Below, piece after piece: positions 9,345 through 22,196 of a DNA stretch of 22,196 nt. Made by a program: the position numbers and the translations under genes. The stretch is from positions 160,918-183,113 of the IMG/VR virus record IMGVR_UViG_3300026549_000035. One strand, written 5' to 3'. How positions within the stretch are numbered: position 1 is the stretch's first letter; each line of letters opens with the position of its first letter. Source of the stretch: a virus. The notes below the pieces were generated by a model that saw only the letters and a list, made by a program, of their open reading frames with translations, made no database searches and was not told the origin of the DNA.

Positions 9345-9383
9345 TAACACTTGACGATTTGTAACGAAAAATATCGAGAATCG

Positions 9384-9662: not shown

Positions 9663-9673
9663 CTTTTACCCCC

Positions 9674-10186: not shown

Positions 10187-10200
10187 AATAAAACCTCCTT

Positions 10201-10940: not shown

Positions 10941-10957
10941 ATTATTCTCCTTTGTAA

Positions 10958-11128: not shown

Positions 11129-11132
11129 TATT

Positions 11133-11531: not shown

Positions 11532-11537
11532 TACTAT

Positions 11538-11912: not shown

Positions 11913-11921
11913 GATTTTTAT

Positions 11922-12272: not shown

Positions 12273-12276
12273 ATTA

Positions 12277-12486: not shown

Positions 12487-12586
12487 TTTTTTACCTCTCC
12501 TTTTTTTTCAAATTCTAATCTACTAAATTCAAAAATAGAAATTGTTTAAGCTGACTTATAGGCATATATATTTTTTCTTTTTATCT

Positions 12587-12865
12587 TTATAAATTTTTTT
12601 TTACTTTTTTATATGAATCATAAATATCTAAATCTATTTCTGTTGAGTAATTACTTTTTATTGTTTTATAAATATGTTTTATATAAAGTAAAGTATCTTC
12701 AATATCAATAAAATAAATTTTTGCGGATCCAGACATACTGCCACGTATTTTTACTTGATAACCGTATTTTTTTTCTTTTAACTTAACATATTCTAATCCA
12801 TATCCTTCAACAGCGCCGAAGCCATATGAAAAATGATCTCTTATTAGTCCTAATGTGATTATCAT
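12587..12865 (-). CDS. hypothetical protein, 92 aa
   Basis: AAAGGAAT SD. Ends in TAA. Confidence 0.55.
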   Translation of the reverse strand: MIITLGLIRDHFSYGFGAVEGYGLEYVKLKEKKYGYQVKIRGSMSGSAKIYFIDIEDTLLYIKHIYKTIKSNYSTEIDLDIYDSYKKVKKNL

Positions 12866-12894
12866 ATTATTATTCCTTTTTTGAAAGTTATTTA

Positions 12895-13251
12895 TTATTT
12901 AAAAAATTCAATTTTTTCATATTCTTTATATTTTTTATCAAAATTTTCCTTTACTTCTGGAAAATCGTTAGATATAATAATAAGTATATCGCTTGGAAAA
13001 AAATTAATAATAATATCTTGGTTATTTTTTATAAGGTAGCCGCAATGCACGCCTCGTAGATTTATAATATCTTCATATTCAGTTGGAGAAACTGTAAATT
13101 TAATTTCTCCTATTTCTTTTTCATTACGTTGTAAATTGATAATTAAATTAATTCTTATTCTTTCCCAAAGAGCTTGTTTTAATTCATCATGATATTTTTT
13201 ATTTTCAAGATTTTTATCCCAAAGGATTAGCGGTTTTGGTCTATAATTCAT
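12895..13251 (-). CDS. hypothetical protein, 118 aa; first gene of a long minus-strand operon
   Basis: Class I promoter copy 6 lies immediately upstream. Ends in TAA. Confidence 0.55.
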   Translation of the reverse strand: MNYRPKPLILWDKNLENKKYHDELKQALWERIRINLIINLQRNEKEIGEIKFTVSPTEYEDIINLRGVHCGYLIKNNQDIIINFFPSDILIIISNDFPEVKENFDKKYKEYEKIEFFK

Positions 13252-13288
13252 TATTTTATTTTTCCTTTTTATTATTTTTTCTATATAT

Positions 13289-13317
13289 ATTATAATATAT
13301 TTTTATTAAAAAATCAA
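13289..13317 (-). promoter_or_regulatory. Class I promoter, copy 6; divergent from the plus-strand promoter of the RHH operon
   Basis: Minus strand reads TTGATT (13317..13312), a 17-nt spacer, then TATAAT (13294..13289). Confidence 0.7.
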
Positions 13318-13345
13318 TTGAGAATTTTTTTGTTAAAAAATTTTT

Positions 13346-13373
13346 TTACATTGTAGGACAAAGTTATATAAAT
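13346..13373 (+). promoter_or_regulatory. Candidate plus-strand promoter (TTTACA-16-TATAAA) for the RHH-led operon
   Basis: tttacattgtaggacaaagttatataaa. It contains the half-operator-like TTACATTGTAG. Confidence 0.35.
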
Positions 13374-13418
13374 TATTACAAAGTATTTTTATATATACAT
13401 GAAAGGAAGTGAAAGAAA

Positions 13419-13550
13419 TTGACTACTATTTCAGTTAGAATTGATGACACAGAAAAAAAGAAATTAGAAGAATTTGCCAGAAAAGAAGATTTAACTATGT
13501 CACAAATTATTCGTAAAGCTTTAAAAGAGTATTTAAAAAATAATACATAA
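13419..13550 (+). CDS. ribbon-helix-helix (CopG/Arc/MetJ-like) DNA-binding protein, 43 aa, TTG start
   Basis: The translation TTISVRIDDTEKKKLEEFARKEDLTMSQIIRKALKEYLKNNT has an N-terminal beta-strand followed by two helices. An AAAGGAAG SD is 9 nt before the TTG. It is absent from the ORF track because it is short and uses a TTG start. Confidence 0.55.
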   Translation: MTTISVRIDDTEKKKLEEFARKEDLTMSQIIRKALKEYLKNNT

Positions 13551-13567
13551 GGAGGCTCATAAGCAAA

Positions 13568-13747
13568 ATGCCAATTAACAAAATAATTTATTCAAAAAGA
13601 GTAATGGAGTCTTTAGTTGCTATGGGTAATATACCTCTTAAATCTATGCCTAATCCTTATAAGCCAGAGTTTTAGTGTTGGATTTTTGAAGTTAATGAAA
13701 AATTTTAGAAAGATATAGATAAAATATTAGGTGATAAATATGGTTGA
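13568..13747 (+). CDS. small protein. ATG 13568 sits after a TAAGGAGG SD, 35 codons run to TAG 13673..13675, the frame continues through a second TAG at 13706..13708 to TGA 13745..13747, and it overlaps the next start.
   Basis: MPINKIIYSKRVMESLVAMGNIPLKSMPNPYKPEF then TAG, CWIFEVNEKF then TAG, KDIDKILGDKYG then stop. The read-through text is protein-like and ends in an ATGnnTGA-style overlap with the downstream gene. Confidence 0.4.
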
Positions 13748-14111
13748 GCGCACTTTTATATTTTATCCTGATTGGCTTAATTTTATTGAACGTATTAGTA
13801 ATGAAAAAGATAAATTAGATTTATATGATATTATTGCTTCTTATGGGTGTCATGGAGAATATTCAAATAAAAATCCTATGATGACTGCTGTTTTTGAATC
13901 TTTAATTAAACCTAAAATAGATATTGCGCAAGGTCGTTATGAAGAAAAAATTACTATGGGAAAGAATTATGGACGTAAAAAAATAGTAGATGATAATATG
14001 GTCAAGTAGTTGGCGCAAGAAGGCATGCGCGCAAAAGATATTGCTGAGAAATTAAACGTGTCGGTTGATACGGTTTATCATAGTGATGGATGGAAAAATA
14101 GAAATTTGTAA
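13740..14111 (+). CDS. two-domain DNA-binding protein. An 89-aa N-terminal domain ends at an in-frame TAG (14007..14009) and is followed by a 33-codon sigma70-region-4-like HTH. It is possibly an ArpU/RinA-like regulator or an initiator-like protein.
   Basis: ATG 13740 sits after a TAGGTGAT SD. The frame after the TAG is contiguous and reads LAQEGMRAKDIAEKLNVSVDTVYHSDGWKNRNL, a classic HTH. The internal ATG 14025 is only 1 nt after its AAGAAGG and cannot initiate well. Confidence 0.5.
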
Positions 14112-14262
14112 AAATAGATGTGATTTTTTACAAAAAATATTTGTAAAAATAGATATTGTTTTTACAAAAAATATTTGTAAAAATACAAATTTTATTTGTA
14201 AAAAACAAATTTTTATTTGTAATTTGTAATTTGCTCTATTATCTATTACAAATTACAAATTT
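14101..14262. repeat. Array of TTGTAA/TTACAA half-sites in direct and inverted arrangement, including two 36-bp tandem units TTTGTAAAAATAGAT...TTTTTACAAAAAATA
   Basis: tttgtaaaaatagat appears twice. ttttacaaaaaatatttgtaaaaata appears twice. Also present are tttgtaaaaaacaaat, tttgtaatttgtaattt and attacaaattacaaat. Confidence 0.8.
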
Positions 14263-14281
14263 TCCACTGACGTGGAAAATA
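14262..14281. promoter_or_regulatory. Palindrome TTTTCCAC-N4-GTGGAAAA, a candidate operator
   Basis: ttttccactgacgtggaaaa has 8-bp inverted arms. Confidence 0.4.
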
Positions 14282-14285
14282 TGTT

Positions 14286-14341
14286 AAAGAGTATTTTAAA
14301 AATCCTAGTCGCTTCGCTCCTAGGCTTTTATAAAATACTCT
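14286..14341. repeat. Long imperfect inverted repeat (stem-loop with about 20 bp of stem) followed by a GGGGCTTTTT tract. It may act as a terminator or processing site upstream of 14372..14617.
   Basis: AGAGTATTTTAAAAATCCTAG, loop tcgcttcgctc, CTAGGCTTTTATAAAATACTCT. Confidence 0.5.
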
Positions 14342-14371
14342 AGGGGCTTTTTATGAAAGGAGAAATGAAAA

Positions 14372-14617
14372 ATGAATGATAATATTTTTTCAACAGAAAA
14401 AAATCGTGAAATAAGTGAGCTTCAAGAAAGAATAAAAAGAGATTGGATTTTAAGAGAAACAGACGAAGAAGATGAATATGAGTTAGAAATAGATGAAGAA
14501 GATTTAGAAAATGTTATAGAAGATATTCTTGAAAGACGAGAGAGAAAAAATAGAGAACTCTTAAAAGAGATAGTAGATTTATTAGAAGATATAAAGATAT
14601 ATCTGAGAAGATTATAG
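14372..14617 (+). CDS. highly acidic coiled-coil-like protein, 81 aa. It ends at TAG and is followed 2 codons later by TAA.
   Basis: SD AAAGGAGAAATG. The translation is Glu/Asp-rich: ...EEDEYELEIDEEDLENVIEDILERRERKNRELL. Confidence 0.5.
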   Translation: MNDNIFSTEKNREISELQERIKRDWILRETDEEDEYELEIDEEDLENVIEDILERRERKNRELLKEIVDLLEDIKIYLRRL

Positions 14618-14640
14618 TTTAAATAAAAGGAGGAATTTTT

Positions 14641-14886
14641 ATGGCAGGAATCCCATCAAAAATTGAACCTACTATGAAAGGGAAAAAGTTACCTTTAATA
14701 TAGAGAGTAAAATATCATGAATTAGATAGTTTTCTTAATAGAAAAGATATTGTTAGAGGAGAACTATTTATAGATGAGAACACTGGGGATTTATATGTAG
14801 CAGAAAAAGGCGATGTAGAAACTTATTGGTTAAGATTAGGTAGAACAGATTTAGAAAAAGAAGAACTGGAACAAAACAAAAATCCA
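14641..14886 (+). CDS. hypothetical protein, 81 codons, with an in-frame TAG at 14701..14703. The 61 codons downstream have no ATG, GTG or TTG.
   Basis: AAGGAGG SD 8 nt before ATG 14641. The translation is MAGIPSKIEPTMKGKKLPLI then TAG, then RVKYHELDSFLNRKDIVRGELFIDENTGDLYVAEKGDVETYWLRLGRTDLEKEELEQNKNPFLN then TGA. Confidence 0.5.
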
Positions 14887-15013
14887 TTTTTAAATTGAAA
14901 TTAAAATAAAAATGTGATATTATATAAATAATAAAAAAGGGCTTTTATAAAAATGAATTGAAAATTCATTTTTATAAAAGAAAAATGAAATGAAAAATGA
15001 GGAAGGTAGAAAT

Positions 15014-15412
15014 ATGAATTATTATTATGAGTCAGGTCATATAGGAAATTATAAAGGACATCAAGTTTGGATAATTGATTATAGTAATTTTTATAGAGAA
15101 GATACTATTGATAGTGATGATATTTGGGCAGTAAGAACAGGACCAAATCAAAGTATTAAATTAGTATTAAAAGGATATGAATTTGGTCAAATGAGTCATA
15201 GTGGAGAAGTGTCTTTATATAGAAAAGAGAAGCCTTTTAACTTTTACCATAGAAGAGAAGAAAAGGAAGTTAAAAAAACTCCGGTAGTAGTAGAAGTAAA
15301 AGAGGAGCCTTTAGAAATTAATTATAGTGATTATACTCAACCAGTAGATATGTTTTTTAAGAATCTAAAAGAGTGGTGGAAAGATTTAGATAAGGAGCTT
15401 AAATCAATATAA
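15014..15412 (+). CDS. hypothetical protein, 132 aa. The second ATG, with a GAGGAAGG SD, is preferred over the track start at 14990.
   Basis: MNYYYESGHIGNYKGHQVW... Ends in TAA. Confidence 0.5.
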   Translation: MNYYYESGHIGNYKGHQVWIIDYSNFYREDTIDSDDIWAVRTGPNQSIKLVLKGYEFGQMSHSGEVSLYRKEKPFNFYHRREEKEVKKTPVVVEVKEEPLEINYSDYTQPVDMFFKNLKEWWKDLDKELKSI

Positions 15413-15459
15413 GATAGGTATTCTACCTATTTTATATAGGGTACAGGTTTTATATAGAA

Positions 15460-15575
15460 ATAATTAAAAACTGTGAAGATTATAGTTTTATAGTAAAAAT
15501 TAAGAAATTATATTGAAAATTGTAAAAATTGCGGTTTTATATTAAAAATTGCAATTCTATGTAGAAAATTGTGGT
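15460..15575. repeat. Iteron-like AAAATTG(Y) repeats phased at about 10 and 20 bp
   Basis: aaaattg copies begin at 15516, 15525, 15545 and 15565, with variant copies upstream. Confidence 0.6.
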
Positions 15576-15579
15576 TTAG

Positions 15580-15620
15580 TGGTGGCCCCGTTCGGTGTTA
15601 ATTGTAACACCATTTTATCG
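15580..15620 (+). other. CCCCGTTCGGTG motif (inverted copy of the island motif) plus the GGTGTTA-ATTG-TAACACC hairpin with a T-tract
   Basis: ggtggccccgttcggtgttaattgtaacaccattttat. Confidence 0.5.
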
Positions 15621-15640
15621 TAATCGTCATCGTTATCATA

Positions 15641-15689
15641 ATAAATAAAAAACCCTTGAGCAACTCGCTCAAGGGTTTTTCTTATTTTC
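15641..15689. terminator. Bidirectional rho-independent terminator
   Basis: AAAAAACCCTTGAGC, loop AACTC, GCTCAAGGGTTTTTCTTATTTT. Confidence 0.85.
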
Positions 15690-15696
15690 ACTTTTA

Positions 15697-16131
15697 TTAT
15701 CTAACCATTCGATTAAGGAAATCCTCAATAGGGTCGACTGCATGAACTGCACCAGCCTTTTGGCTCTTATTTTTCAATGCTTCGAGCTCCTGGCTTAGCT
15801 CAATATACTTAGTGAGAAAAGGAAGAGATTCATCGATAACTTTAACGATCTCTTCTGGATCAGCCTCTTCGATAGCATCAAGAATCTCATCATCAACCTC
15901 ATAAACTGCCAAAAGATCTTCAAATGCAAAGAGAACTGCTTCTACAGCCGCTATCTTCTGGGCAAAAAGATTATCCTGCTTTGCTTTTGCTTCAGCTTCT
16001 GCTTTTTTGGCAGCTTCCGCAGCCTTATGCTTCTCATTTGCTTCGTTCAAGCTCTTGGTAAGTGATGCAGCAATATCTTCCGCCGACTCACCATTCTGTA
16101 GACGCTCAAGAATCTCATTTGTATAATCCAT
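15697..16131 (-). CDS. acidic Ala/Glu/Lys-rich protein, 144 aa; paralog of 2660..3058
   Basis: GC-richer than its surroundings. Class I promoter copy 7 is immediately upstream and a strong terminator lies downstream. Ends in TAA. Confidence 0.65.
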   Translation of the reverse strand: MDYTNEILERLQNGESAEDIAASLTKSLNEANEKHKAAEAAKKAEAEAKAKQDNLFAQKIAAVEAVLFAFEDLLAVYEVDDEILDAIEEADPEEIVKVIDESLPFLTKYIELSQELEALKNKSQKAGAVHAVDPIEDFLNRMVR

Positions 16132-16166
16132 TTATAAAAACCTCTTTTCTTTTATTTTCTATATAT

Positions 16167-16195
16167 ATTATATCAAAAATTTTTATAAAAATCAA
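16167..16195 (-). promoter_or_regulatory. Class I promoter, copy 7
   Basis: Minus strand reads TTGATT (16195..16190), a 17-nt spacer, then TATAAT (16172..16167). Confidence 0.7.
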
Positions 16196-16199
16196 ATTT

Positions 16200-16705
16200 A
16201 GGCTCGTAAAGCCACGAAAATTTTTCTGTGGAAAGAAATTCATGAGAACTTCCTTTTGGATAGCTGGGCTGATAAAAATCAGCCTTTGTAAATACGCCAT
16301 AGCAAAGATGAGAACTATGCGTTTTTCCCCGAACGGACATCCGAACGGGAATGGACAGGAACGAAAGAGCTGCGGAAAATTTTTGGTTTTTTTTAATATT
16401 ATACCAAAAAATTTTTTGAAAGTCAAACAAGTAATTATAAAAACAAACACCGAGCGGGGCCGGCAAGTAACTTTCAAATGAGATAAAAGCCATATGGGGC
16501 AAACACCGAACGGGGGCCCGCCCGGGGGGGCAGAGTGGTAAAAAAAAATTTCCCATTTCGGGAAAATGAGATGCCATATGGGGGGCCGCACTTGCCCTCG
16601 AAAAATTTGCATATGGGGTTAGGTGCGGGAATTCGGGCGACGTCTATTGTCGTCGGCCCGATGATTTTATCGCTTTAAGCCACTAAAGTGCCCGGGCGCA
16701 AACCC
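16200..16705. other. GC-rich non-coding island with reiterated CACCGAACGGGG and CATATGGGG motifs and several hairpins. The overlapping track ORFs here are judged spurious.
   Basis: caccgagcgggg at 16448, caccgaacgggg at 16504, ccccgaacgg and ccgaacggg near 16326..16347. catatgggg appears three times near 16491, 16575 and 16610. A bulged hairpin GGGCGACG...CGTCGGCCC is also present. Confidence 0.6.
16538..16568 (-). terminator. Rho-independent terminator for the minus-strand class II unit arrays
   Basis: Minus strand reads ATTTTCCCGAAATGGGAAAT followed by TTTTTTTTT. Confidence 0.7.
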
Positions 16706-16707
16706 TA

Positions 16708-16926
16708 TTAATTAATAGGGGGCGCAATTTTAGTAATCATATTTTCATAAAGGCATATTAATCCTTGATCGAAATGAACCCAAGGAATCATGTCACCCTC
16801 ACGATTCAAGATATACCAACCGACAGTCTTTTTCTTCTCTCTCCAATCCCAAAATTCACACCAGTAGTGAGAGACAAAGCGAGGCCTAATTTTCGTATTC
16901 CACCAAAATCTGAAGTTTGTAAACAT
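16708..16926 (-). CDS. hypothetical Trp-rich small protein, 72 aa
   Basis: It has its own class II promoter. The stop TAA is embedded in the hairpin CCCTATTAATTAATAGGG. Confidence 0.5.
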   Translation of the reverse strand: MFTNFRFWWNTKIRPRFVSHYWCEFWDWREKKKTVGWYILNREGDMIPWVHFDQGLICLYENMITKIAPPIN

Positions 16927-16956
16927 CTTTATTATCTCCTTTTCTTTGATGTATTT

Positions 16957-16985
16957 ATTATAGCGTGAATAAATTAAAATGTCAA
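16957..16985 (-). promoter_or_regulatory. Class II promoter: TTGACA-17-TATAAT, no operator
   Basis: Minus strand reads TTGACA TTTTAATTTATTCACGC TATAAT, then the conserved leader AAATACATCAAAGAAAAGGAG. Confidence 0.7.
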
Positions 16986-16991
16986 GAGTTT

Positions 16992-17174
16992 TTAAAAATC
17001 TTCTTTTCTTTTTATGATTCGTTTATTATTTTTTGAATCAATAATAATAACATACTTATCACCTACACGAGCACGCCAATGGTGAGAAAAGAAGTAGTCT
17101 GCAATAGTTTCCTTGTTATTATCACAGACAGACCAAGTATGATCTGAAAATAAAAGAATTACTTTATCAATCAT
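16992..17174 (-). CDS. hypothetical small protein, 60 aa; weakly similar to the 16708..16926 product (SHHW / SHYW motif)
   Basis: Own class II promoter and operator. Ends in TAA. Confidence 0.45.
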   Translation of the reverse strand: MIDKVILLFSDHTWSVCDNNKETIADYFFSHHWRARVGDKYVIIIDSKNNKRIIKRKEDF

Positions 17175-17203
17175 TTTTATCTCTCCCTTTTTTTGATATA
17201 TTT

Positions 17204-17252
17204 ATTATAACATACTATAACTTAATTGTCAATAATTATTACAATTTTGTAA
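17204..17252 (-). promoter_or_regulatory. Class II promoter (TTGACA-17-TATAAT) with the upstream operator TTACAA-TT-TTGTAA (17239..17252)
   Basis: tgtcaa at 17227..17232, attata at 17204..17209 and ttacaattttgtaa at 17239..17252 on the plus strand. Confidence 0.7.
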
Positions 17253-17265
17253 CCAGCCCGGGTGC

Positions 17266-17292
17266 AGTTCTCTCACCAGTGGAGAGAGAACA
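17266..17292 (-). other. Stop-overlapping hairpin GTTCTCTC...GAGAGAAC at the end of 17273..17560
   Basis: gttctctcaccagtggagagagaac. Confidence 0.5.
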
Positions 17293-17560
17293 CATAGCTT
17301 ACCTTATGATTAAATTTAACTTGATATCCTAATGTTTCGTAATAATTACGAATAATAGTATTTCTTTCATCTGTGTCCAAATCATAAAAACGGTTTCTAT
17401 CTTGAAATCTTAGAAGGATACAAGTTTCGCCCCTACTTGCGGCTGTTTCTATTAACTTATCAAAACGATTAAACTCAGAAAAAAGATAGCTATTAGCAAT
17501 TTCTTTTCTCTTTGTTTGAGCTTCTGTGGCTATCTGTCTTGCTTCTTTTGCACTAATCAT
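17273..17560 (-). CDS. hypothetical protein, 95 aa
   Basis: AAAGGAG SD 9 nt upstream. In an operon 5 nt after 17566..17832. Ends in TGA. Confidence 0.55.
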   Translation of the reverse strand: MISAKEARQIATEAQTKRKEIANSYLFSEFNRFDKLIETAASRGETCILLRFQDRNRFYDLDTDERNTIIRNYYETLGYQVKFNHKVSYVFSLHW

Positions 17561-17565
17561 CTTAT

Positions 17566-17832
17566 TTACTCCTTTTCTAAACAGCGATTAATAAATCGAC
17601 TTATCTTATCTTCTGCAACAGAAACTTCTTTTAAAAGTGAAAATAAGAAATCATTAAAATTATCGTCATAATAAAGAGCGACAAAACTATTGATATCCCC
17701 AGTACCGTGAGTTTCTTCTGCGATAAAATCAGTAATAAGGTCAATCATGCGAGTTACTATCTGAACAGCTTGTAAATTTTTTTCATCAAGATTTAAAGAA
17801 ACCTTTATTACTTTTTCAGAGTCTATTGTCAT
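17566..17832 (-). CDS. hypothetical acidic protein, 88 aa
   Basis: Class II promoter and operator upstream. Ends in TAA. Confidence 0.55.
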   Translation of the reverse strand: MTIDSEKVIKVSLNLDEKNLQAVQIVTRMIDLITDFIAEETHGTGDINSFVALYYDDNFNDFLFSLLKEVSVAEDKISRFINRCLEKE

Positions 17833-17863
17833 TTTTTTTATCTCCTTTTCTTTTGATGTATTT

Positions 17864-17917
17864 ATTATAGCACATCAAGATAAAAAAGTCAATAGTTAAA
17901 ATATTACAATTTTGTAA
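17864..17917 (-). promoter_or_regulatory. Class II promoter (TTGACT-17-TATAAT) with the operator TTACAATTTTGTAA (17904..17917) and the GCCCGGGCG box (17921..17929)
   Basis: agtcaa at 17887..17892 and attata at 17864..17869. The conserved leader is AAATACATCAAAAGAAAAGGAGATAAAAAAAATG. Confidence 0.7.
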
Positions 17918-17942
17918 TCTGCCCGGGCGCAAACCCCTTTGA

Positions 17943-18294
17943 TTAATCATCTTCAAAGGGGCATTCGTCAAACCAAGGACAAGAAGAAGCGCAAGATTCA
18001 GCAGAATCATCACATGGAACATTTAACTTGAAATCATCGGGAAGTGGGAGAGGAGGAAATATTACTTGATCATTTATGATGTGCGCTCCTGACTCAAGAG
18101 CTTCTGCGATGTCAAACCCTTGGAGCCAATCAAGTAAGGCTTCTGCGCAACTTTTTTAAGCAGGTATCCTCATCAACCTTTTGACGGTATTTATCACAAG
18201 CTGTCCAATCGCCTACTTCATAGATAGGACAATCATTACAATAAACTGTTGCTTTGTCAATAAGTTTTTTAAGTTTATTATCATTTACAATCAT
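17943..18294 (-). CDS. Cys-rich protein, about 117 aa, interrupted by a +1 frameshift at an A6 run (minus-strand heptamer A_AAA_AAG, plus-strand T6 at 18152..18157)
   Basis: Frame 0 from ATG 18294 reads MIVNDNKLKKLIDKATVYCNDCPIYEVGDWTACDKYRQKVDEDTCLKK and then stops soon at TGA 18132. The +1 frame is open from just before the A-run to TAA 17945 and reads KSCAEALLDWLQGFDIAEALESGAH...NVPCDDSAESCASSCPWFDECPFEDD. Removing one A joins the two frames. Confidence 0.5.
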
Positions 18295-18332
18295 TTTTAT
18301 AACCTCTCTTCTTAACCTTTTGGAACAAGCTC

Positions 18333-18590
18333 TTAGTAATCAACACTAATGTAACACGCTTCACCACGAGTCATACCATTTTCAAGTAAAACTTCTGCAA
18401 CATAACGCTCAGGTTTATTTAATTCCTCAAAATCTTTTTCATCTTTAGGAATCCAAAAATAAATTGCGCCACTTTGTGGAGGGCAGTATGATTCGTTAAA
18501 TTCTCCTTCTACATCTTCACCATATTTTTTTTGAATAAGGGTAAAAACTTCACTGGAATCATACACTTTATACATTTTGAACTGAAACAT
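18333..18590 (-). CDS. hypothetical protein, 85 aa
   Basis: Class II promoter and operator upstream. Ends in TAA. Confidence 0.55.
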   Translation of the reverse strand: MFQFKMYKVYDSSEVFTLIQKKYGEDVEGEFNESYCPPQSGAIYFWIPKDEKDFEELNKPERYVAEVLLENGMTRGEACYISVDY

Positions 18591-18620
18591 TTTTTTATCT
18601 CCTTTTCTTTTGATGTATTA

Positions 18621-18669
18621 AGTATAACACAGTCAGAAGAAAAAGTCAATAGCTATTACAATTTTGTAA
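18621..18669 (-). promoter_or_regulatory. Class II promoter (TTGACT-17-TATACT) with the operator TTACAATTTTGTAA (18656..18669) and the GCGCCCGGGCGC box (18684..18695)
   Basis: agtcaa at 18644..18649 and agtata at 18621..18626. Confidence 0.65.
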
Positions 18670-18695
18670 CTTTTTTTTTATTGCGCCCGGGCGCT

Positions 18696-18800
18696 CGGAG
18701 GCGTTTACACTCGCTATCCGAGGCACTACTCAGGAACGTGGTAGGAGCACGTCACTCTTTTCATGTCCTACCCTCGAATAGCAACTGTAAACGCCCCCAG
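18696..18800. ncRNA. A ~105-nt GC-rich long imperfect hairpin (about 30 bp paired in three stem segments) inserted between a gene-end hairpin and a promoter box. It is a candidate structured RNA or protein-binding palindrome of unknown class.
   Basis: Outer stem GGCGTTTACA/TGTAAACGCC, middle stem GCTATCCGAGG/CCTCGAATAGC with one wobble pair, inner stem GGTAGGA/TCCTACC. A 17-nt asymmetric loop contains ACGTG. It fails a tRNA cloverleaf test. Confidence 0.35.
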
Positions 18801-18805
18801 GGGGG

Positions 18806-18828
18806 GTTGAGGGGTTAACCCTCAACCT
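18806..18828 (-). other. Perfect 9-bp hairpin GGTTGAGGG-GTTAA-CCCTCAACC overlapping the stop of 18815..19212
   Basis: ggttgaggggttaaccctcaacc. Confidence 0.6.
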
Positions 18829-19212
18829 CAGCAGGAGCTTCATAGACTCCCACAGGAGCGAAGTAGGTTCTGCGCTTTACGCTACCCTTAGACAGCTCAC
18901 CGGCCTGAATAGCCTGACGAAGCAAAGCAGAAACATGCTGATTGCTGTCGCCTTCAACCGCAGGACACTCTTTGAGCAAATCGCTAACGGTGTAACCGTT
19001 CGACCCCTCAACAAAGTGAGTATCGATATACTCTACCAGACGCTCACGAACAACAGCGTTCTCAGTCTGACGAGCGGTAGGTTTACGCTCTATGCCAGAC
19101 TTCTTGTCGAGCTGTTCAACCATCTTCTGGAGCTTCTCAGCTACCTCGGTAGGCAGGTCATAACTCTCCAAACATAAGCAAGAGCCTTACGGTTAGTCAT
19201 CTTATTAGTCAT
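18815..19212 (-). CDS. GC-rich (roughly 50% by eye) putative DNA-binding protein of uncertain fold. The RBS-supported start ATG 19212 is out of frame by 1 nt with the long ORF, so there is a frameshift or indel near 19166..19176.
   Basis: AAAGGA SD 9 nt before ATG 19212, which gives MTNKMTNRKALAYV. The long ORF from TTG 19171 has no SD and reads ESYDLPTEVAEKLQKMVEQLDKK... Inserting one T in the TTT run joins them as ...ALAYVLESYDL.... Codon composition is unlike its neighbours. Confidence 0.5.
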
Positions 19213-19290
19213 AGTATCAATCCTTTCAGCGTTGGTCGCCACCCAAATTTTTATTGTCAAGGGAGGTTTTCCTTCCCTTTGACTGTCTTT

Positions 19291-19345
19291 ATTATATCAC
19301 ATAGAGAGGAAAAAGTCAAGGGGGTTTTCAAATTTTTTTGAAAAT
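19291..19345 (-). promoter_or_regulatory. Class II-type promoter (TTGACT-17-TATAAT) with a different upstream palindrome, TTTTCAAA-N4-TTTGAAAA (19326..19345), and a structured leader
   Basis: agtcaa at 19314..19319 and attata at 19291..19296. The leader hairpin GTCAAAGGGAAGG-AAAA-CCTCCCTTGAC is at 19256..19286. Confidence 0.55.
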
Positions 19346-19533
19346 CTGTTTCGTTACCGTGTATCCACAAAAGAGAGAACCTCGTGGGAGGGACTTTTTA
19401 TCTCTCTCCCCTTGACTGTAATATTATTATAGCAGATTCAATTGGTTTTGTCTATTGGCAAAATGCACAAAGGATTTTCAACATTTTGTTTTATTTTGTG
19501 CATTTTGCCGGGGCACCCGGGCGCTGAGTGCTA

Positions 19534-19866
19534 TTACGAAATAAAGGCAATAGCACGACAGTCAGGCTTCCACTCAAAAAACTTTTCTAAGTGATATTTA
19601 TTATAGAATTTTAAAAATGCTTGTTCATCTTTTGGATTTAAAACATACTTATCTTTATTAAATTCTTTAATATCTTCACCATAGTCAAGGATAGTATACA
19701 CAACCCCAACAAAATGCTCTTCGTCTGCCCAATCATTAAGGCATTTTGCCCATTTGTTTTCCCAGCCTTCACGGTCATTAATATCCTCAATAATATCTTC
19801 AATTGCTTCAAAATCTTCTTTACTAATAATTATGCCGTAACCAATAGCAAAAGAAAAATCTATAGC
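19534..19866 (-). CDS. hypothetical protein, about 110 aa from ATG 19866
   Basis: An AAAGGAG SD lies 9 nt before ATG 19866, and the track start at 19878 abuts the SD. It is in an operon after 19897..20337. The stop is embedded in the hairpin GTGCTATT...AATAGCAC. Confidence 0.5.
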   Translation of the reverse strand, partial: AIDFSFAIGYGIIISKEDFEAIEDIIEDINDREGWENKWAKCLNDWADEEHFVGVVYTILDYGEDIKEFNKDKYVLNPKDEQAFLKFYNKYHLEKFFEWKPDCRAIAFIS

Positions 19867-19896
19867 CATTTTTTTCATCTCCTTTCTTTGTCCCCC

Positions 19897-20337
19897 TCAA
19901 GCCGCAAGAAGCGACTTGAGGGTTTCAATCATTTCATCAGCAGGACAAGCACGACCTGTCCATGCTTCAAGGTGTCGAACTTCATCATCAAACAGAATAT
20001 CCTCGCCAGAATTTACATCATTTTTTGTAAACCAGTAAGGAACAAAACGAATCTCATCAAAACGAACGCTTTTAAGGTGACGATTAAGCCACATTTTTTT
20101 TGCCTTGATTACTGCTTCATCATATTCTGCGGAGCTGTTCTTTGACAAAGCGGTAACAATGCAAATTTCAAAACCGTTGCGCTGAACTCTATTCATCAGC
20201 CGAGCCAGAAGCGAAAGATTTACAAGGGGTTTTGCTTCTGCGTAGGGGGTAGGGTCAGAATTGATTAACTTTTCAAGCCAATCATTAACCCCATAAAGGT
20301 CAGCAATAGTGCCGTCCATGTCAAACCAAATTCTCAT
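19897..20337 (-). CDS. HAD-superfamily 5'(3')-deoxyribonucleotidase (NT5C/YorS-like)
   Basis: The N-terminal HAD motif I WFDMDGTIADL (DxDGT) and the overall 146-aa size and pattern match phage and Bacillus 5'-nucleotidases. Ends in TGA. Confidence 0.6.
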   Translation of the reverse strand: MRIWFDMDGTIADLYGVNDWLEKLINSDPTPYAEAKPLVNLSLLARLMNRVQRNGFEICIVTALSKNSSAEYDEAVIKAKKMWLNRHLKSVRFDEIRFVPYWFTKNDVNSGEDILFDDEVRHLEAWTGRACPADEMIETLKSLLAA

Positions 20338-20360
20338 AGGGTATCAATCCTTTCTCTCTT

Positions 20361-20389
20361 TGATGTATTTATTATATCATACTCTAAAT
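20361..20389 (-). promoter_or_regulatory. Class II promoter (TTGACA-17-TATAAT), no TTACAA operator. The GCGCCCGGGCG box is at 20456..20466.
   Basis: tgtcaa at 20384..20389 and attata at 20361..20366. Conserved leader AAATACATCAAAGAGAGAAAGGA. Confidence 0.65.
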
Positions 20390-20469
20390 AAAATGTCAAT
20401 ACTTTTTCTATTATTATTATAACAAATTTTTTAATATTTTTCAAAGAAGTCTTTTTGCGCCCGGGCGTA

Positions 20470-20504
20470 AATTAAAAAGCGGAATGTAAAGGCATTCCGC
20501 TTTA
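20470..20504 (-). terminator. Rho-independent terminator for 20502..20705; 11-bp perfect stem
   Basis: AAAGCGGAATG, loop TAAAGG, CATTCCGCTTT, with TTTAATTT on the minus strand. Confidence 0.65.
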
Positions 20505-20705
20505 ACAATTATCTGAAAAACAACCCAAATAAGGATCATAGCCTACTTCATAATCACAATCATCTATTTCAGACTCATTGTTATAATAAGCTGCTTCATC
20601 ACATTCTAAGATAGGATTACTCTCAGGGTACATGGAGCAATTACCATACTTATAATAAGGACAAGTACAATCTGCTACAGGACACTCAAAAACTTTTTTA
20701 TTCAT
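20502..20705 (-). CDS. small Cys-rich protein, 67 aa from ATG 20705
   Basis: An AAAGG SD lies 9 nt upstream. The translation MNKKVFECPVADCTCPYYKYGNCSMYPESNPILECDE...CDYEVGYDPYLGCFSDNC has 9 Cys. Ends in TAA. Confidence 0.5.
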   Translation of the reverse strand: MNKKVFECPVADCTCPYYKYGNCSMYPESNPILECDEAAYYNNESEIDDCDYEVGYDPYLGCFSDNC

Positions 20706-20738
20706 TAGTATCAACCTTTCTTCTTTTATTGTGATTAT

Positions 20739-20803
20739 AGTATAGCATGAAAAAATTATTTTGTCAAGGATTTTTTGGTTACAATCTTGTAATCTGCCCG
20801 GGG
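20739..20803 (-). promoter_or_regulatory. Class II promoter (TTGACA-17-TATACT) with the operator TTACAA-TC-TTGTAA (20779..20792) and the GCCCGGGG box
   Basis: tgtcaa at 20762..20767 and ttacaatcttgtaa at 20779..20792. Confidence 0.65.
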
Positions 20804-20807
20804 CGAA

Positions 20808-20834
20808 GCCAGACCTCCCCCATTAAAAGGGGAG
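20808..20834 (-). other. Perfect 9-bp hairpin GACCTCCCC-ATTAAAA-GGGGAGGTC overlapping the stop of the HD gene
   Basis: gacctcccccattaaaaggggaggtc. Confidence 0.6.
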
Positions 20835-21433
20835 GTCGCTGTCGTCAAGGATAAAATCCTCGGGGTGAGCGTCAATCTCATACTCTGCGGTAAGAGTAGG
20901 AATATCCCAAAATGACCTTGAAGCAATATAATCAGACAAGTGAACAAGGCGGTCAACAGGGGTGAAAGGTCTATCTTCTTTCGGCTCAGTCCATTGACCC
21001 ATGTGTGACTTAATCGCCAGTAAAAGCACTTCGGGAGCTTCTTCATTGAAAAATTCCTGCCATGCTTCTTTAACAGCATTTGAAGCGTGCAAACCGTGTT
21101 GCTTGAAGCAATTTTTATCTTCTTCTAAACCGCCGTATTTATAAGTGTCGTGAAGAATACAAGCGACTTTTGCATAATCTTTGTATTCATCTCTCATATA
21201 CGCATAAGTATTCATGCGTAAAAGTTCTTCACATACCATCACAACGGCTCTTGTATGACGAATTAAACCGCCCTCGCCCTGAGCGAATACAGGGTGATAT
21301 TTACCAGAAGAAGAAGCCCCAGACTTTTTAAACCATTCCCCAACACGAGTGTCAAGAAAAAATCGAGTGAAGTCTTTCAAATCTTCGCTTTGGATAAGCT
21401 GGATTTCACGCTCAAAAAATTTACTTAACTGCA
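20823..21433 (-). CDS. HD-domain metal-dependent phosphohydrolase, about 203 aa from ATG 21433
   Basis: H..H (GKYHP...IRHTRAV), HD (ACILHDTYKYG), H (HGLHASN) and D (LVHLSDY) motifs. An AAAGGA SD is 10 nt before ATG 21433. The track start at 21533 would run through the promoter and operator, so it is rejected. Confidence 0.6.
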
Positions 21434-21459
21434 TTTGTATCAAATCCTTTCTCTCTTTG

Positions 21460-21531
21460 ATTACAATGTAATTATAGCACACTCTGTCGGAAATGTCAAT
21501 AGTTATTACAAAATTGTAACCGCGCCCGGGC
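21460..21531 (-). promoter_or_regulatory. Class II promoter (TTGACA-17-TATAAT) flanked by two operators, TTACAAAATTGTAA (21505..21518, upstream) and TTACAATGTAA (21460..21470, over the -10/+1), plus the CGCGCCCGGGC box
   Basis: tgtcaa at 21493..21498 and attata at 21470..21475. Confidence 0.65.
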
Positions 21532-21546
21532 AAAAAATGGGAAGTT

Positions 21547-21795
21547 TTAATCTAAAACTTCCCATGGATAACAGCGCAAAGCGCCTTCAAGAGCTTCTTC
21601 AAGATTCTCACGAGTTAGTTTACCTTTGTAAAGAAGTCGTTCGGGGTGAAAATTATCATAAATGAAATATTCATCATCATTTTTGGTAAATCCAACCCCG
21701 CAAAGGGTATTTAATGCGTATTCTAATCCAGTTTGAAAAGTTTCACTTACTGAACAAATGGCTCCATCAAAATCTATAAAAATAAATACAACCAT
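21547..21795 (-). CDS. hypothetical protein, 82 aa; its start overlaps the upstream stop (TAATG)
   Basis: Translational coupling with 21795..22070. Ends in TAA. Confidence 0.5.
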   Translation of the reverse strand: MVVFIFIDFDGAICSVSETFQTGLEYALNTLCGVGFTKNDDEYFIYDNFHPERLLYKGKLTRENLEEALEGALRCYPWEVLD

Positions 21796-22070
21796 TAAAA
21801 AACTCTCTCCTTTCCTTTTCTTTCAATAAAATCTGCTAAATAAGTTTCCACTTCAGCAGGACGATTAATAAGATCTTCGATAAATTCGGTAAAATTACCA
21901 TTACCATAAACAGCTTTTATAAAATCAGTCAGTTCATACTGCTGATGAAGTTCTTGGTAAATGAATTCTTTGAAATTTTCAAGAATATTCAAAGTTCCTT
22001 TTAGACTTAATACATCTTCCGAGGAAAAGGTAAAGTCAATACTGATTGTTTTACTGGCAGAAAGTTTCAT
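21795..22070 (-). CDS. hypothetical protein, 91 aa
   Basis: An AAAGGAAAT SD lies 7 nt upstream, directly after the poly(T) tract. Ends in TAA. Confidence 0.5.
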   Translation of the reverse strand: MKLSASKTISIDFTFSSEDVLSLKGTLNILENFKEFIYQELHQQYELTDFIKAVYGNGNFTEFIEDLINRPAEVETYLADFIERKGKERVF

Positions 22071-22084: not shown

Positions 22085-22182
<98 letters not shown>

Positions 22183-22196
22183 CTCTTTCTCTCACT

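What the first reader, a model, noticed from the sequence alone, without database searches (positions are those of the whole stretch)
16926..21531. Array of eight self-contained class II transcription units, each with a GCCCGGGCG box, palindromic operator, consensus promoter, conserved leader and stop-codon hairpin
Almost every small gene between 16.7 and 21.5 kb has its own TTGACA/TTGACT-17-TATAAT promoter followed by a near-identical leader (AAATACATCAAARGARARGGAG). Five promoters carry the operator TTACAA-NN-TTGTAA 4 to 8 bp upstream of the -35, and the 21.4-kb unit has a second copy over the -10/+1. Each upstream gene ends in a GC hairpin that contains its stop codon (CCCC...GGGG type). 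An SmaI-site palindrome GCCCGGGCG lies between the hairpin and the operator in 8 copies at 16691, 17256, 17921, 18684, 19515, 20456, 20798 and 21521. Such cassette-like, individually repressible units in a phage suggest an accessory or anti-defense gene array under a common repressor, possibly assembled by recombination at the conserved boxes.
Basis: seen in the sequence. Interest (0 to 1): 0.8.

Follow-up and report, generated by a model that had tools for sequence, protein, structure and literature searches.

The report
Shuffled early-gene cassettes in a phage
A large uncultivated phage of gut or rumen Firmicutes carries a row of small early genes, each bracketed by a near-identical promoter cassette and a hairpin, and related phages have swapped whole genes at exactly these boundaries; this resembles a mechanism already described in T4-like phages, with two new sequence signatures.

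Summary
All genes lie on the minus strand. Between 16.4 and 21.5 kb there are 9 near-consensus promoters (0.06 expected), 9 CCCGGG boxes (none in about 25 kb of flanking genome), 5 exact TTACAA-NN-TTGTAA palindromes, a shared leader, and hairpins that hold the stop codon.

Eight related metagenome contigs (L244-L246, L252, L253, L256, L258, L264) show the same design, with up to 22 promoters in 13 kb. They differ by whole gene cassettes. Homology breaks fall at the GC box or at the start codon.

This matches the promoter-early stem-loop (PeSL) cassettes of T4-like phages in architecture and in evolutionary behaviour. It also resembles the SPO1 host-takeover module, here in a phage of at least 177 kb from Firmicutes.

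The "common repressor" reading is not supported:
- the palindrome sits upstream of the -35 and is present at only 5 of 9 promoters;
- it is replaced by an UP-like A/T tract at other promoters;
- it is absent from a distant relative (L258) that keeps everything else;
- it equals the published BceR/MbrC response-regulator box;
- it occurs with the same 6-nt spacing before envelope-related genes in Oscillospirales genomes.

Most hairpins lack a U-tract, so insulation of the units is unproven. An anti-defence role is untested.

The parts
21547..22070 (-). First two genes held in the window (91 aa and 82 aa). Their own promoter cassette is missing and is replaced by poly-A at 22090-22196.
   Evidence: ORFs. 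Orthologues in L252, L256 and L264 are preceded by a GC box, an A/T tract and a consensus promoter.
21537..21565 (-). Hairpin 1, with the stop codon TAA in the loop. It is one of the few hairpins followed by a U-run.
   Evidence: A compensatory change (T-A to C-G) is seen in L252 and L256.
21435..21532 (-). Regulatory cassette 1: GC box 21523-21532, palindrome 21506-21519, -35 at 21494-21499, -10 at 21471-21476, related palindrome ATTACATTGTAAT at 21460-21472, then leader and Shine-Dalgarno (SD) site.
   Evidence: It is 97.9% identical to L252, against 74-91% for the flanking genes.
20823..21434 (-). HD-domain phosphohydrolase gene (203 aa).
   Evidence: Pfam HD E=4.8e-10 and phrog_5889. Homologues occur in Clostridium phage c-st and SPO1-like phages.
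20706..20837 (-). Hairpin 2 (20812-20837, stop codon in loop) plus cassette 2: GC box about 20797-20804, palindrome 20779-20792 (11 nt from the -35), promoter 20739-20767.
   Evidence: A compensatory GAC/GTC to GAG/CTC change is seen in L252 and L256.
20502..20705 (-). Cys-rich 67-aa gene.
   Evidence: Orthologues are present in L252 and L264.
20338..20503 (-). Hairpin 3 (20476-20503, with U-run) plus cassette 3: GC box 20459-20467 and tandem promoters 20416-20444 and 20371-20399. There is no palindrome, and the leader is the canonical one.
   Evidence: It is 99.2% identical to L252.
19534..20337 (-). Two-gene unit: an NT5C/HAD-like nucleotidase (146 aa) and a 114-aa protein.
   Evidence: Pfam NT5C E=9.8e-6 and phrog_2643.
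18694..19560 (-). GC-rich 'fam0' cassette. It comprises: hairpin with stop codon; GC box 19514-19523; inverted repeat GGCAAAATGCACAAA...TTTGTGCATTTTGCC (about 19457-19508); promoter 19426-19454; promoter 19291-19319, preceded by TTCAAA-N4-TTTGAA; a winged-helix gene at 19212-18815 (frameshifted here); and a 110-nt structured element at 18694-18810.
   Evidence: GC content is 51%. The gene has a 1-nt deletion relative to L252 and L264. The family has 308 relatives. The model shows a winged helix. The structured element folds at -74.6 kcal/mol with z = -7.9.
18591..18693 (-). Cassette 5: GC box 18684-18693, palindrome 18656-18669, promoter 18621-18649, leader.
   Evidence: Homology with L252 breaks immediately after this GC box. 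The same cassette sits in front of a different gene in L252.
17943..18590 (-). Unit with an 85-aa gene and a Cys-rich gene of about 113 aa. The second gene is split by a 1-nt insertion in an A-run.
17833..17961 (-). Hairpin 6 (17933-17961, stop codon in loop) plus cassette 6: GC box 17920-17929, palindrome 17904-17917 (11 nt from the -35), promoter 17864-17892, canonical leader.
   Evidence: Homology with L252 ends exactly at the ATG at 17832.
17273..17832 (-). Two-gene unit (88 aa and 95 aa).
   Evidence: Weak PHROG matches of unknown function.
17175..17291 (-). Hairpin 7 (17267-17291, TGA in the stem) plus cassette 7: GC box 17256-17264 (one mismatch), palindrome 17239-17252, promoter 17204-17232.
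   Evidence: The orthologous promoter in L252 has a T8A8 tract in place of the palindrome.
16992..17174 (-). 60-aa gene. It has no hairpin and no GC box after it.
16927..16985 (-). Cassette 8: a perfect TTGACA-17-TATAAT promoter (16957-16985) and the canonical leader, with no GC box and no palindrome.
16687..16926 (-). 72-aa gene, hairpin 8 (16703-16720, stop codon in loop) and GC box 16689-16698. This is the downstream edge of the array.
   Evidence: Homology with L252 resumes 6 nt before this GC box.
16148..16686 (-). Conserved non-coding block after the array. It contains CATATG-bearing GC-rich repeats, an extra GC box at 16519-16528, a hairpin at 16549-16565, and a promoter at 16398-16426 that drives an ORF-less transcript of about 230 nt.
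   Evidence: It is 87% identical to L252 and is also present in L245, L264 and L258.

Best explanation
The region is the hyperplastic early-gene array of a large virulent-type phage (at least 177 kb) of Firmicutes. It is built from two kinds of exchangeable modules.

Module 1, the gene module. It runs from the start codon to a gene-specific hairpin whose 5' arm encodes the last few codons and whose loop or stem holds the stop codon.

Module 2, the regulatory module. It is about 100 bp long and highly conserved. In order it contains:
- the GC box ((G)CG-CCCGGG-CGC);
- an upstream element, either a T-tract/A-tract that matches the UP-element consensus or the 14-bp palindrome TTACAA-NN-TTGTAA;
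- a consensus sigma-A promoter with a -16 TRTG motif;
- a conserved leader and a strong Shine-Dalgarno (SD) site.

Shown: the motifs and their statistics; family-wide conservation; compensatory changes in the hairpins; and the fact that related genomes differ by whole modules, with junctions at the GC box or the ATG.

Inferred:
(a) The host RNA polymerase fires all these promoters immediately after infection, giving high independent expression of many small host-takeover or accessory proteins.
(b) The hairpins attenuate or stabilise transcripts rather than terminate efficiently, because U-tracts are rare.
(c) The conserved cassettes act as portable homology for the phage recombination system, so genes are inserted, deleted and reordered without losing expression. 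This is the mechanism demonstrated for PeSL cassettes in T4-like phages.
(d) The palindrome is an optional site for a host OmpR-family (BceR-like) regulator, or for a phage DNA-binding protein. It is not a universal operator.

The specific role of the exactly conserved CCCGGG core is not explained. The most likely options are a binding site for a dimeric phage protein that marks the cassette edge, or simply the conserved 5' end of the recombining repeat.
For: Motif statistics.

Relatives with the same design: L252, L256, L264, L244-246, L253 and L258.

Cassette-level differences in gene content and order.

Junctions:
- W versus L252 blocks end at the GC box (18682, 16702), at ATGs (18585, 18297, 17833) and just upstream of the -35.
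- L252 carries an extra 347-bp cassette relative to L256. It is flanked by a direct repeat running from the GC box to the -35.
- 34 of 98 block ends lie within 12 nt of a GC box or a cassette ATG, against a 6.8% background.

Conservation: two of three cassettes are 98-99% identical between the window and L252, while the flanking genes are 74-91% identical.

Hairpins: compensatory changes.

Firmicutes and phage affinity: HD and peptidase homologues in Clostridium, Bacillus (SPO1-like) and Enterococcus phages, plus PHROG matches.

Genome size: a 177,555-nt contig is identical to window 1-16195.

Published SPO1 host-takeover description: PMC6873191.
Against: - There is no transcript data, so early timing, promoter use and termination are all inferred from sequence.
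- Most hairpins lack a U-tract, so the units may not be insulated, and long read-through transcripts are possible.
- The block-end statistic counts each junction in both genomes and in several pairs, so its P value is inflated.
- Homologous recombination does not by itself explain why an exact CCCGGG palindrome is kept across relatives of very different GC content.
- No structural or replication hallmark gene was seen in the DNA examined, so 'phage' rests on protein similarities and genome style.
Confidence: 0.7

Rival explanations
1. First reader's model. The palindrome is the operator of one phage repressor that can switch each unit off individually. The array is an anti-defence island under that repressor.
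For: - The palindrome is exact, far above chance, and conserved at orthologous promoters.
- A winged-helix gene (fam0) lies inside the array.
- An AbrB/MazE-like gene lies in the arrays of relatives.
Against: - The site is outside the core promoter and is present at only a minority of promoters.
- Its distance to the -35 is 1, 6 or 11 nt, which puts it on opposite faces of the helix.
- It is interchangeable with an UP-like tract at an orthologous promoter.
- It is absent in L258, which still has the fam0 gene and the array.
- The same site with the same spacing occurs in bacterial chromosomes.
- There is no significant anti-defence match.
Confidence: 0.12
2. The palindrome is a host response-regulator box. 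The phage has wired a subset of early promoters to a BceR-like or other OmpR-family regulator of the host envelope or envelope-stress regulon. Alternatively, the many copies titrate that regulator.
For: - Exact identity to the S. mutans MbrC/BceR consensus TTACAAnnTTGTAA (PMC4048456).
- Agreement with the ACA-N4-TGT core of BceR-like boxes.
- Near identity to the CusR/HprR and LciR boxes.
- In a capped genome scan, the 6-nt spacing is over-represented (32 of 122 matches). Of those 32, 21 are in Bacillota, including 10 Acutalibacteraceae plus Ruminococcaceae and Oscillospiraceae.
- These sites have proper -10 elements. They are followed by Wzy_C O-antigen-ligase-like genes, a GT8 glycosyltransferase and YtrA-like GntR-ABC operons.
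- A Carnobacteriaceae copy precedes a BceAB-like pair of 251 aa and 669 aa.
Against: - The phage core promoters are already full consensus and should not need an activator.
- The variable spacing (1, 6 or 11 nt) is unusual for a face-specific activator.
- No regulator was identified and no binding was tested.
- The host is not known.
Confidence: 0.3
3. Hairpin plus GC box is a site-specific recombination or cleavage site, in the manner of an integron attC site or a homing site. It would be used by a dedicated phage enzyme to move gene cassettes, rather than serving as passive homology.
For: - The hairpins vary in sequence but are conserved in structure, and each is followed by an invariant palindromic core at the 3' end of each gene module.
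- Junctions fall within a few nt of the GC box.
- The ENA assembly of the source sample places the array on a contig (L001) separate from the 177-kb contig. L001 diverges from the window at about 16148, and the 177-kb contig diverges at about 16195, at the repeated promoter next to fam12.
- A weak T5orf172/HTH protein occurs in relatives.
- The PeSL authors speculated about a protein that recognises their stem-loop.
Against: - No integrase, recombinase or clear nuclease lies in the window or in the arrays examined.
- An equal number of junctions lie at the ATG or inside the promoter, as expected for homologous exchange anywhere in a 100-bp repeat.
- The cassettes carry their own promoters, unlike integron cassettes.
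Confidence: 0.1
4. The GC box is part of the termination signal. A block of hard-to-melt G+C just downstream of a U-poor hairpin slows RNA polymerase and makes the hairpins work as terminators or attenuators.
For: - The box always lies 3-10 nt after a hairpin, usually after a short T-rich stretch.
- Hairpins otherwise lack U-tracts.
- It is established knowledge that downstream sequence modulates intrinsic termination. This was not tested here.
Against: - A generic GC clamp would not need an exactly conserved palindrome.
- GC boxes also occur at a fairly fixed 21-25 nt from the -35, which suggests they belong to the promoter module.
- One unit has no hairpin and no box.
Confidence: 0.15

Closest known systems
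PeSL (promoter-early stem-loop) regulatory cassettes of T4-like phages (Arbiol et al. 2010, PMC2839356; Comeau et al. 2014, PMC4122927)
   Same: - Intergenic composite elements in a hyperplastic region of small ORFans.
[quoted passage not shown]
- Related genomes differ by insertion, deletion or replacement of genes, with crossovers inside the cassettes.
   Different: - The host is a Firmicute and the phage lineage is different; no T4 core genes were seen.
- The hairpin belongs to the gene module and contains the stop codon.
- An exactly conserved CCCGGG palindrome marks the cassette edge.
- A subset of cassettes carries a 14-bp regulator-type palindrome in place of the AT-rich region.
- Terminator activity and mini-circles, shown experimentally for PeSLs, are untested here.
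SPO1 host-takeover module (Stewart et al. 1998; summarised in PMC6873191 and PMC7414437)
   Same: - A stretch of about 12 kb in a large Firmicutes myovirus, packed with small early genes in many short operons.
- Each operon has a strong sigma-A promoter and a strong ribosome-binding site.
- The HD protein of the window has an SPO1 homologue, gp32.6, elsewhere in that genome.
   Different: - No protein or DNA similarity to the SPO1 module, apart from one short match within the ORF set tested (27 aa, E=2e-4).
- SPO1's terminal repeat has only 1 promoter matching the strict pattern, no CCCGGG and no palindrome.
- A location in a terminal repeat is not established here.
BceR/MbrC-type response-regulator boxes of Firmicutes, and the CusR/HprR/LciR boxes of Proteobacteria
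   Same: - The same sequence: TTACAAnnTTGTAA, with an ACA-N4-TGT core.
- The same position, just upstream of a -35.
   Different: - In bacteria these boxes precede activator-dependent promoters of transporter, dlt or copper genes.
- Here the box precedes consensus phage promoters, at variable spacing.
- No regulator is known.
UP element of strong bacterial promoters, and the upstream A-tracts of SP82/SPO1 early promoters (own knowledge)
   Same: Promoters without the palindrome carry a T-run followed by an A-run from about -54 to -40 (for example cattttttttaaaaaaaactc-TTGACA). This fits the UP consensus in position and composition.
   Different: Function was not tested. In this family the tract is bounded upstream by the GC box.
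Integron attC gene cassettes
   Same: Each gene is followed by a structured site of variable sequence with a conserved core, and whole genes are exchanged.
   Different: There is no integrase. The cassettes have their own promoters. The hairpins are short. Junctions are also found at start codons.

Membership tests
PeSL cassettes (T4-like phages) | Composite intergenic element: a stem-loop next to a strong sigma-70-type early promoter with an AT-rich upstream region | tested here: met
   9 promoters, 8 hairpins and A/T tracts. The definition is taken from PMC2839356.
PeSL cassettes (T4-like phages) | Located in a hyperplastic region of small, mostly unknown genes | tested here: met
   13 genes of 54-203 aa, of which only 2 have a Pfam domain. 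Gene content varies between relatives.
PeSL cassettes (T4-like phages) | Indels and replacements between related genomes have their junctions inside the cassettes | tested here: met
PeSL cassettes (T4-like phages) | The stem-loop is an effective transcription terminator | tested here: inconclusive
   The hairpins are stable and covary, but U-tracts are mostly missing. No functional assay is possible with these tools.
PeSL cassettes (T4-like phages) | Formation of excised mini-circles by recombination between flanking cassettes | not testable with these tools
   This needs inverse PCR or long reads from infected cells.
PeSL cassettes (T4-like phages) | Carried by a T4-like (Tevenvirinae-type) genome | tested here: not met
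   Protein relatives are in Clostridium, Bacillus SPO1-like and Enterococcus phages. There is no nucleotide match to any deposited phage. It therefore works like PeSLs but is not a member of that lineage.
SPO1-type host-takeover module | Many short operons of small genes with strong sigma-A promoters and strong ribosome-binding sites | tested here: met
SPO1-type host-takeover module | Lies in the long terminal repeat of the genome | tested here: inconclusive
   In the ENA assembly the array is on a contig (L001) separate from the 177-kb contig. That contig matches the window only up to about 16195, about 0.5 kb downstream of the array's last GC box. Termini were not determined.
SPO1-type host-takeover module | Homology to SPO1 genes 37-60 | tested here: not met
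   tblastn of the array proteins against the SPO1 terminal repeat gave only one 27-aa match.
   The sites end 6 or 11 nt upstream of the -35. The palindrome over the start of the HD unit has a different half-site spacing.
   The site is present at 5 of 9 promoters. No HTH or RHH gene was detected in the array by Pfam. The only candidate is the frameshifted winged-helix gene.
BceR-like response-regulator box | Inverted repeat TTACAAnnTTGTAA (ACA-N4-TGT core) upstream of the -35 | tested here: met
   for the phage sites; for the published consensus.
BceR-like response-regulator box | Precedes BceAB-type transporter or envelope-modification genes in bacterial genomes | tested here: inconclusive
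   In the capped scan, one clear BceAB-like pair was found. The Oscillospirales copies precede Wzy_C, GT8 and YtrA-ABC genes. In the phage the box precedes unrelated genes.
BceR-like response-regulator box | Bound by a phosphorylated OmpR-family regulator | not testable with these tools
   This needs EMSA or DAP-seq with the regulator of the (unknown) host.
Intrinsic terminator | G+C-rich hairpin directly followed by a U-tract | tested here: not met
   3 of 8 hairpins in the window pass a lenient scan. By a stricter criterion, 1 of 64 passes in five genomes.

The most novel reading that the evidence does not exclude
A lineage of large gut and rumen Firmicutes phages has turned its early region into a true cassette system. 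The invariant CCCGGG box next to each gene's terminal hairpin would be a protein-recognised exchange or boundary site, possibly read by the multi-copy, highly conserved winged-helix protein encoded inside the array. A sub-lineage has in addition grafted the host's BceR-type envelope-stress regulator box onto a third of its early promoters. This would couple early gene expression to, or titrate, the host's envelope-stress signalling.
Probability: 0.15. Interest if true: 0.8.

Novelty: new variant of a known kind. Interest (0 to 1): 0.55.

Why it matters
It extends PeSL-type modular shuffling, so far documented in T4-like phages of Gram-negative hosts, to an unrelated lineage of large phages of anaerobic Firmicutes. 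This is a very clean natural example:
- up to 22 stereotyped promoters in 13 kb;
- junctions at single-nucleotide-defined landmarks;
- several independent metagenomic variants.

It offers a defined 100-bp strong-promoter cassette for Clostridia-type hosts. It also yields two testable questions: what reads the invariant CCCGGG box, and whether phage early promoters borrow a host envelope-regulon site. The match to chromosomal promoters of Acutalibacteraceae and Ruminococcaceae also gives a host lead for an uncultivated phage family.

Tried and rejected
- Rfam scan of the whole window at E<=1: nothing in the array.
- tRNA scan: none.
- Megablast against deposited phages: no match.
- GC-box-plus-palindrome pattern and the HD protein in IMG/VR: no hits.
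- The 16-nt leader pattern in IMG/VR: mostly single chance hits, not followed up.
- A shared regulator between this phage and other palindrome-bearing viral contigs: none found by tblastn.
- Pfam and PHROG searches of all plausible ORFs for HTH or RHH regulators in the window: only DUF6291/HTH_7 on the opposite strand, outside the array.
- Homology to the SPO1 host-takeover genes: none.
- Expectation that the palindrome would mostly precede ABC transporters in bacterial genomes: only 2 of 122 matches.
- Reading 'class II' as T7-type: rejected, because these are host-type promoters.
- Treating the element at 21460-21472 as a second operator: rejected on spacing.
- Fold search for the winged-helix protein: only generic wHTH matches (E 0.01-0.1), so no family assignment.
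- The position of BceR boxes relative to the -35 could not be taken from the papers read.

Full report
**Orientation and check of the observation**

All genes of the region lie on the minus strand, so the units are read from 22070 down to 16400.

The pattern TTGAC[AT]-17-TATA[AC]T occurs nine times in the window. All nine are on the minus strand, with -35 starts at 21499, 20767, 20399, 19319, 18649, 17892, 17232, 16985 and 16426. Dinucleotide-preserving shuffles give a mean of 0.06 and never more than one. Six or seven of the nine also carry TRTG just upstream of the -10, and every gene has an AAAGGAG-type ribosome-binding site. From established knowledge of Gram-positive promoters, this combination points to a Firmicutes host.

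The eighth, near 20800, is a one-base-longer variant. There is a ninth copy at 16520. Chance expectation is 0.24. CCCGGG is absent from the remaining 16.1 kb of the window and from a further 9.4 kb of the same genome.

TTACAA-NN-TTGTAA occurs five times exactly, against 0.24 expected. It lies 6 nt (three cases) or 11 nt (two cases) upstream of the -35.

The leader TATAATAAATACATCAAA is shared by five promoters.

A stable hairpin precedes every GC box, and in seven of eight gene ends the stop codon sits in its loop or stem.

- The 60-aa gene at 17174-16992 has neither a hairpin nor a GC box.
- The 'second operator' over the start of the HD unit (21460-21472, ATTACA-T-TGTAAT) has half-sites 3 bp closer together, so it is not the same site.
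- Only three hairpins are followed by a U-run.

**What the array encodes**

Two products are recognisable: an HD phosphohydrolase and an NT5C/HAD-like nucleotidase. The remaining genes are small and have no family, apart from weak matches.

One gene, which I call fam0 (19212-18815), stands out at 51% G+C.
- In the window it is broken by a one-base deletion relative to intact orthologues.
- It belongs to a family of more than 300 highly conserved proteins, found on contigs of up to 197 kb.
- It occurs in two or three copies per related genome.
- Its model has a C-terminal winged helix, with generic similarity to MarR, ArsR and Fur domains.

The rest of the window encodes NUDIX, isochorismatase and peptidase proteins, among others. 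Their nearest phage relatives are in Enterococcus, Bacillus (SPO1-like) and Clostridium phages.

A 177,555-nt contig from the same ENA sample is identical to window 1-16195. The element is therefore part of a very large genome. I did not see structural genes, so 'phage' rests on these similarities and on the style of the genome.

**Relatives**

Scanning metagenome contigs for the GC box joined to the palindrome returned two long relatives, L252 and L256, and four short ones, L244, L245, L246 and L253. Looking up the fam0 protein added L264, which is close, and L258 and L261, which are more distant.

All show the same order of elements: hairpin, GC box, upstream element, consensus promoter, leader, gene.
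- L252 has 18 promoters and 16 CCCGGG in 11 kb.
- L256 has 22 promoters and 14 CCCGGG.
- L258, whose array is 45% G+C, has about 24 promoters and 19 CCCGGG in 12 kb but no palindrome at all.

So the deep, conserved design is hairpin, GC box, A/T tract and promoter. The palindrome is a lineage-specific addition.

Promoters without the palindrome carry a T-run followed by an A-run at about -54 to -40. This is the position and composition of an UP element.

At the orthologous promoter of the 60-aa gene, the window has the palindrome and L252 has T8A8.

**Cassette exchange**

The window and L252 are collinear at 84% identity from the first gene to the GC box at 18685. Homology then stops 3 nt past that box.

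The other blocks behave as follows:
- The same promoter cassette reappears in L252 in front of a different gene.
- The next shared block runs exactly from one ATG to the next ATG.
- Another block starts 8 nt upstream of a -35.
- Homology resumes 6 nt before the last GC box.

Gene order also differs. The window has H, then I, then J; L252 has I, then H, then J. Whole cassettes are present or absent among the window, L252, L264 and L256.

L252 carries one extra 347-bp cassette relative to L256. It is flanked by a direct repeat that runs from the GC box to the -35. The single L256 cassette has the upstream flank of one L252 copy and the downstream part of the other, which is the footprint of recombination between two cassettes.

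Over all pairs, 34 of 98 block ends lie within 12 nt of a GC box or a cassette start codon, against a 6.8% background. The ends are not independent, so the P value is inflated, but the effect is large.

Two of three orthologous cassettes are 98-99% identical between the window and L252, while the flanking genes are 74-91% identical. The hairpins show compensatory substitutions.

In the source sample itself, three different junctions exist at the promoter next to the gene after the array.

**Comparison with what is known**

This is the behaviour described for PeSL cassettes of T4-like phages. Those are a stem-loop (often GGGG...CCCC), an AT-rich stretch, a strong sigma-70 promoter and a ribosome-binding site. 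They are repeated through hyperplastic regions of small ORFans, and recombination between them causes insertions, deletions and replacements and even excised mini-circles (PMC2839356, PMC4122927).

The array also resembles the SPO1 host-takeover module, in which small early genes sit in many short operons with strong promoters and ribosome-binding sites (PMC6873191). However, SPO1's terminal repeat shows no sequence or protein similarity apart from one short 27-aa match. It has only one promoter matching the strict pattern, no CCCGGG and no palindrome.

I therefore file the array as working like PeSLs in a different phage lineage, with three differences:
- the hairpin belongs to the gene module and contains the stop codon;
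- an exact CCCGGG palindrome marks the upstream edge of the regulatory module;
- some cassettes carry a regulator-type palindrome.

**The palindrome**

TTACAAnnTTGTAA is, letter for letter, the consensus reported for the BceR-type regulator MbrC of Streptococcus mutans (PMC4048456). It fits the ACA-N4-TGT core given for BceR-like regulators of Firmicutes. It is nearly identical to the CusR/HprR box of E. coli and the LciR box of Legionella. All of these are sites for OmpR-family activators upstream of the -35.

A capped scan of bacterial genomes for the palindrome followed by TTGAC gave 122 matches.
- The 6-nt spacing is over-represented, at 32 of 122.
- Of those 32, 21 are in Bacillota: ten Acutalibacteraceae genomes, plus Ruminococcus, Ruminococcaceae, Oscillospiraceae, goat and rabbit gut Clostridia, and two Streptococcus genomes.
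- Eighteen of the 32, mostly in these Bacillota genomes, also have a -10-like element 16-18 nt downstream of the -35.
- They are followed by Wzy_C O-antigen-ligase-like genes, a GT8 glycosyltransferase and YtrA-like GntR-ABC operons.
- A Carnobacteriaceae copy precedes a BceAB-like pair.

The palindrome is thus a chromosomal cis-element of envelope-related promoters in exactly the kind of bacteria expected as hosts. Several related contigs come from ruminant gut studies, judging by their record names.

This makes a host regulator site more likely than an operator for a phage repressor, but it is not proof. The phage core promoters need no activator, the spacing varies by half-turns, and no binding was tested.

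**What remains unexplained**

The exact conservation of CCCGGG across relatives of very different base composition is not accounted for by passive homology. The candidates I considered are:
- a site for a dimeric phage protein, where the co-conserved winged-helix protein is the obvious one to test;
- a termination-enhancing G+C block;
- a specific exchange site.

Because U-tracts are rare (1 of 64 by a strict criterion), the claim that each unit is transcriptionally self-contained is not established.

**Verdict**

- The common-repressor part is not supported.
- The anti-defence part is untested.
- The array is a new variant of a known kind of system.

Noticed in passing
window 16195, 13317, 8651, 6916, 5543, 4930, 3158, 1658 (minus strand); L386: The rest of the window uses a second, equally stereotyped promoter cassette: TTGATT or TTTATT, an all-A/T 17-nt spacer, TATAAT, the leader ATATATAGAAAAT, then an SD site. 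It has no GC box and no palindrome. There are 8 copies in the window and 8 in the 21-kb L386 locus, which overlaps window 1-11597 and extends 9.4 kb beyond it. This may be a different temporal class.
   Followed up: partly
window 22090-22196: About 100 nt of poly-A (on the gene strand), with a few interruptions, sits where relatives have a GC box, an A/T tract and a consensus promoter for the first gene. The independent contig L001 also ends in poly-A. This is probably an assembly artefact at the window edge.
   Followed up: partly
window about 19170 and about 18155: Two array genes are broken by single-base indels relative to intact orthologues. The winged-helix gene has a deletion after GTT, and the Cys-rich gene of about 113 aa has A6 instead of A5. 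These are either real pseudogenes or homopolymer errors.
   Followed up: yes
window 16148-16688: A conserved non-coding block follows the array. It has three CCCCATATGG-type repeats, two CGGTGTTTG repeats, an extra GC box, a hairpin with a U-run, and a consensus promoter (16426) driving about 230 nt without an ORF. It is conserved in L252, L245, L264 and, more loosely, L258. Rfam has no match.
   Followed up: partly
window 18694-18810: A very stable structured element of about 110 nt (-74.6 kcal/mol, z = -7.9) lies between the winged-helix gene and the next GC box. It was seen only in the orthologous copy of L252 (other fam0 copies in L252, L256, L258 and L246 lack it; L264 was not examined). 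One L256 copy has an unrelated insert of about 100 nt at that place, and another has a tRNA-like sequence (anticodon loop CTTTTAA).
   Followed up: partly
window 19457-19508; L252, L256, L258: The inverted repeat AAATGCACAAA...TTTGTGCATTT lies just after the GC box upstream of each winged-helix (fam0) gene copy, together with two tandem promoters and a long conserved leader. It could be the autoregulatory site of that protein.
   Followed up: no
L388 1-480, L001 5990-6447, window 16148-16195: In the source sample (ENA ERZ27252065), three different sequences are joined at the repeated promoter in front of the 144-aa gene: the window arrangement, the 177-kb contig k141_7166 with another gene upstream, and L001 with an unrelated AT-rich continuation. 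This indicates strain heterogeneity or recombination at the second cassette class.
   Followed up: partly
L012, L021, L030; L023, L062, L069, L097; L022: Unrelated viral contigs (44-55% G+C) also repeat TTACAA-NN-TTGTAA 11-12 nt upstream of TTGACA at several strongly conserved promoters. No protein is shared with this phage.
   Followed up: partly
L054, L103: Two other viral contigs carry 9 and 4 copies of GTTACAAGGTTGTAAC just upstream of gene starts. This is a different repeated palindrome of unknown role.
   Followed up: no
window 13731-14009 (+ strand): A DUF6291 protein, which carries an HTH_7 match in the longer gene call, is encoded on the opposite strand in a small divergent island. 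Synteny with the array is conserved in L258 and L261.
   Followed up: no
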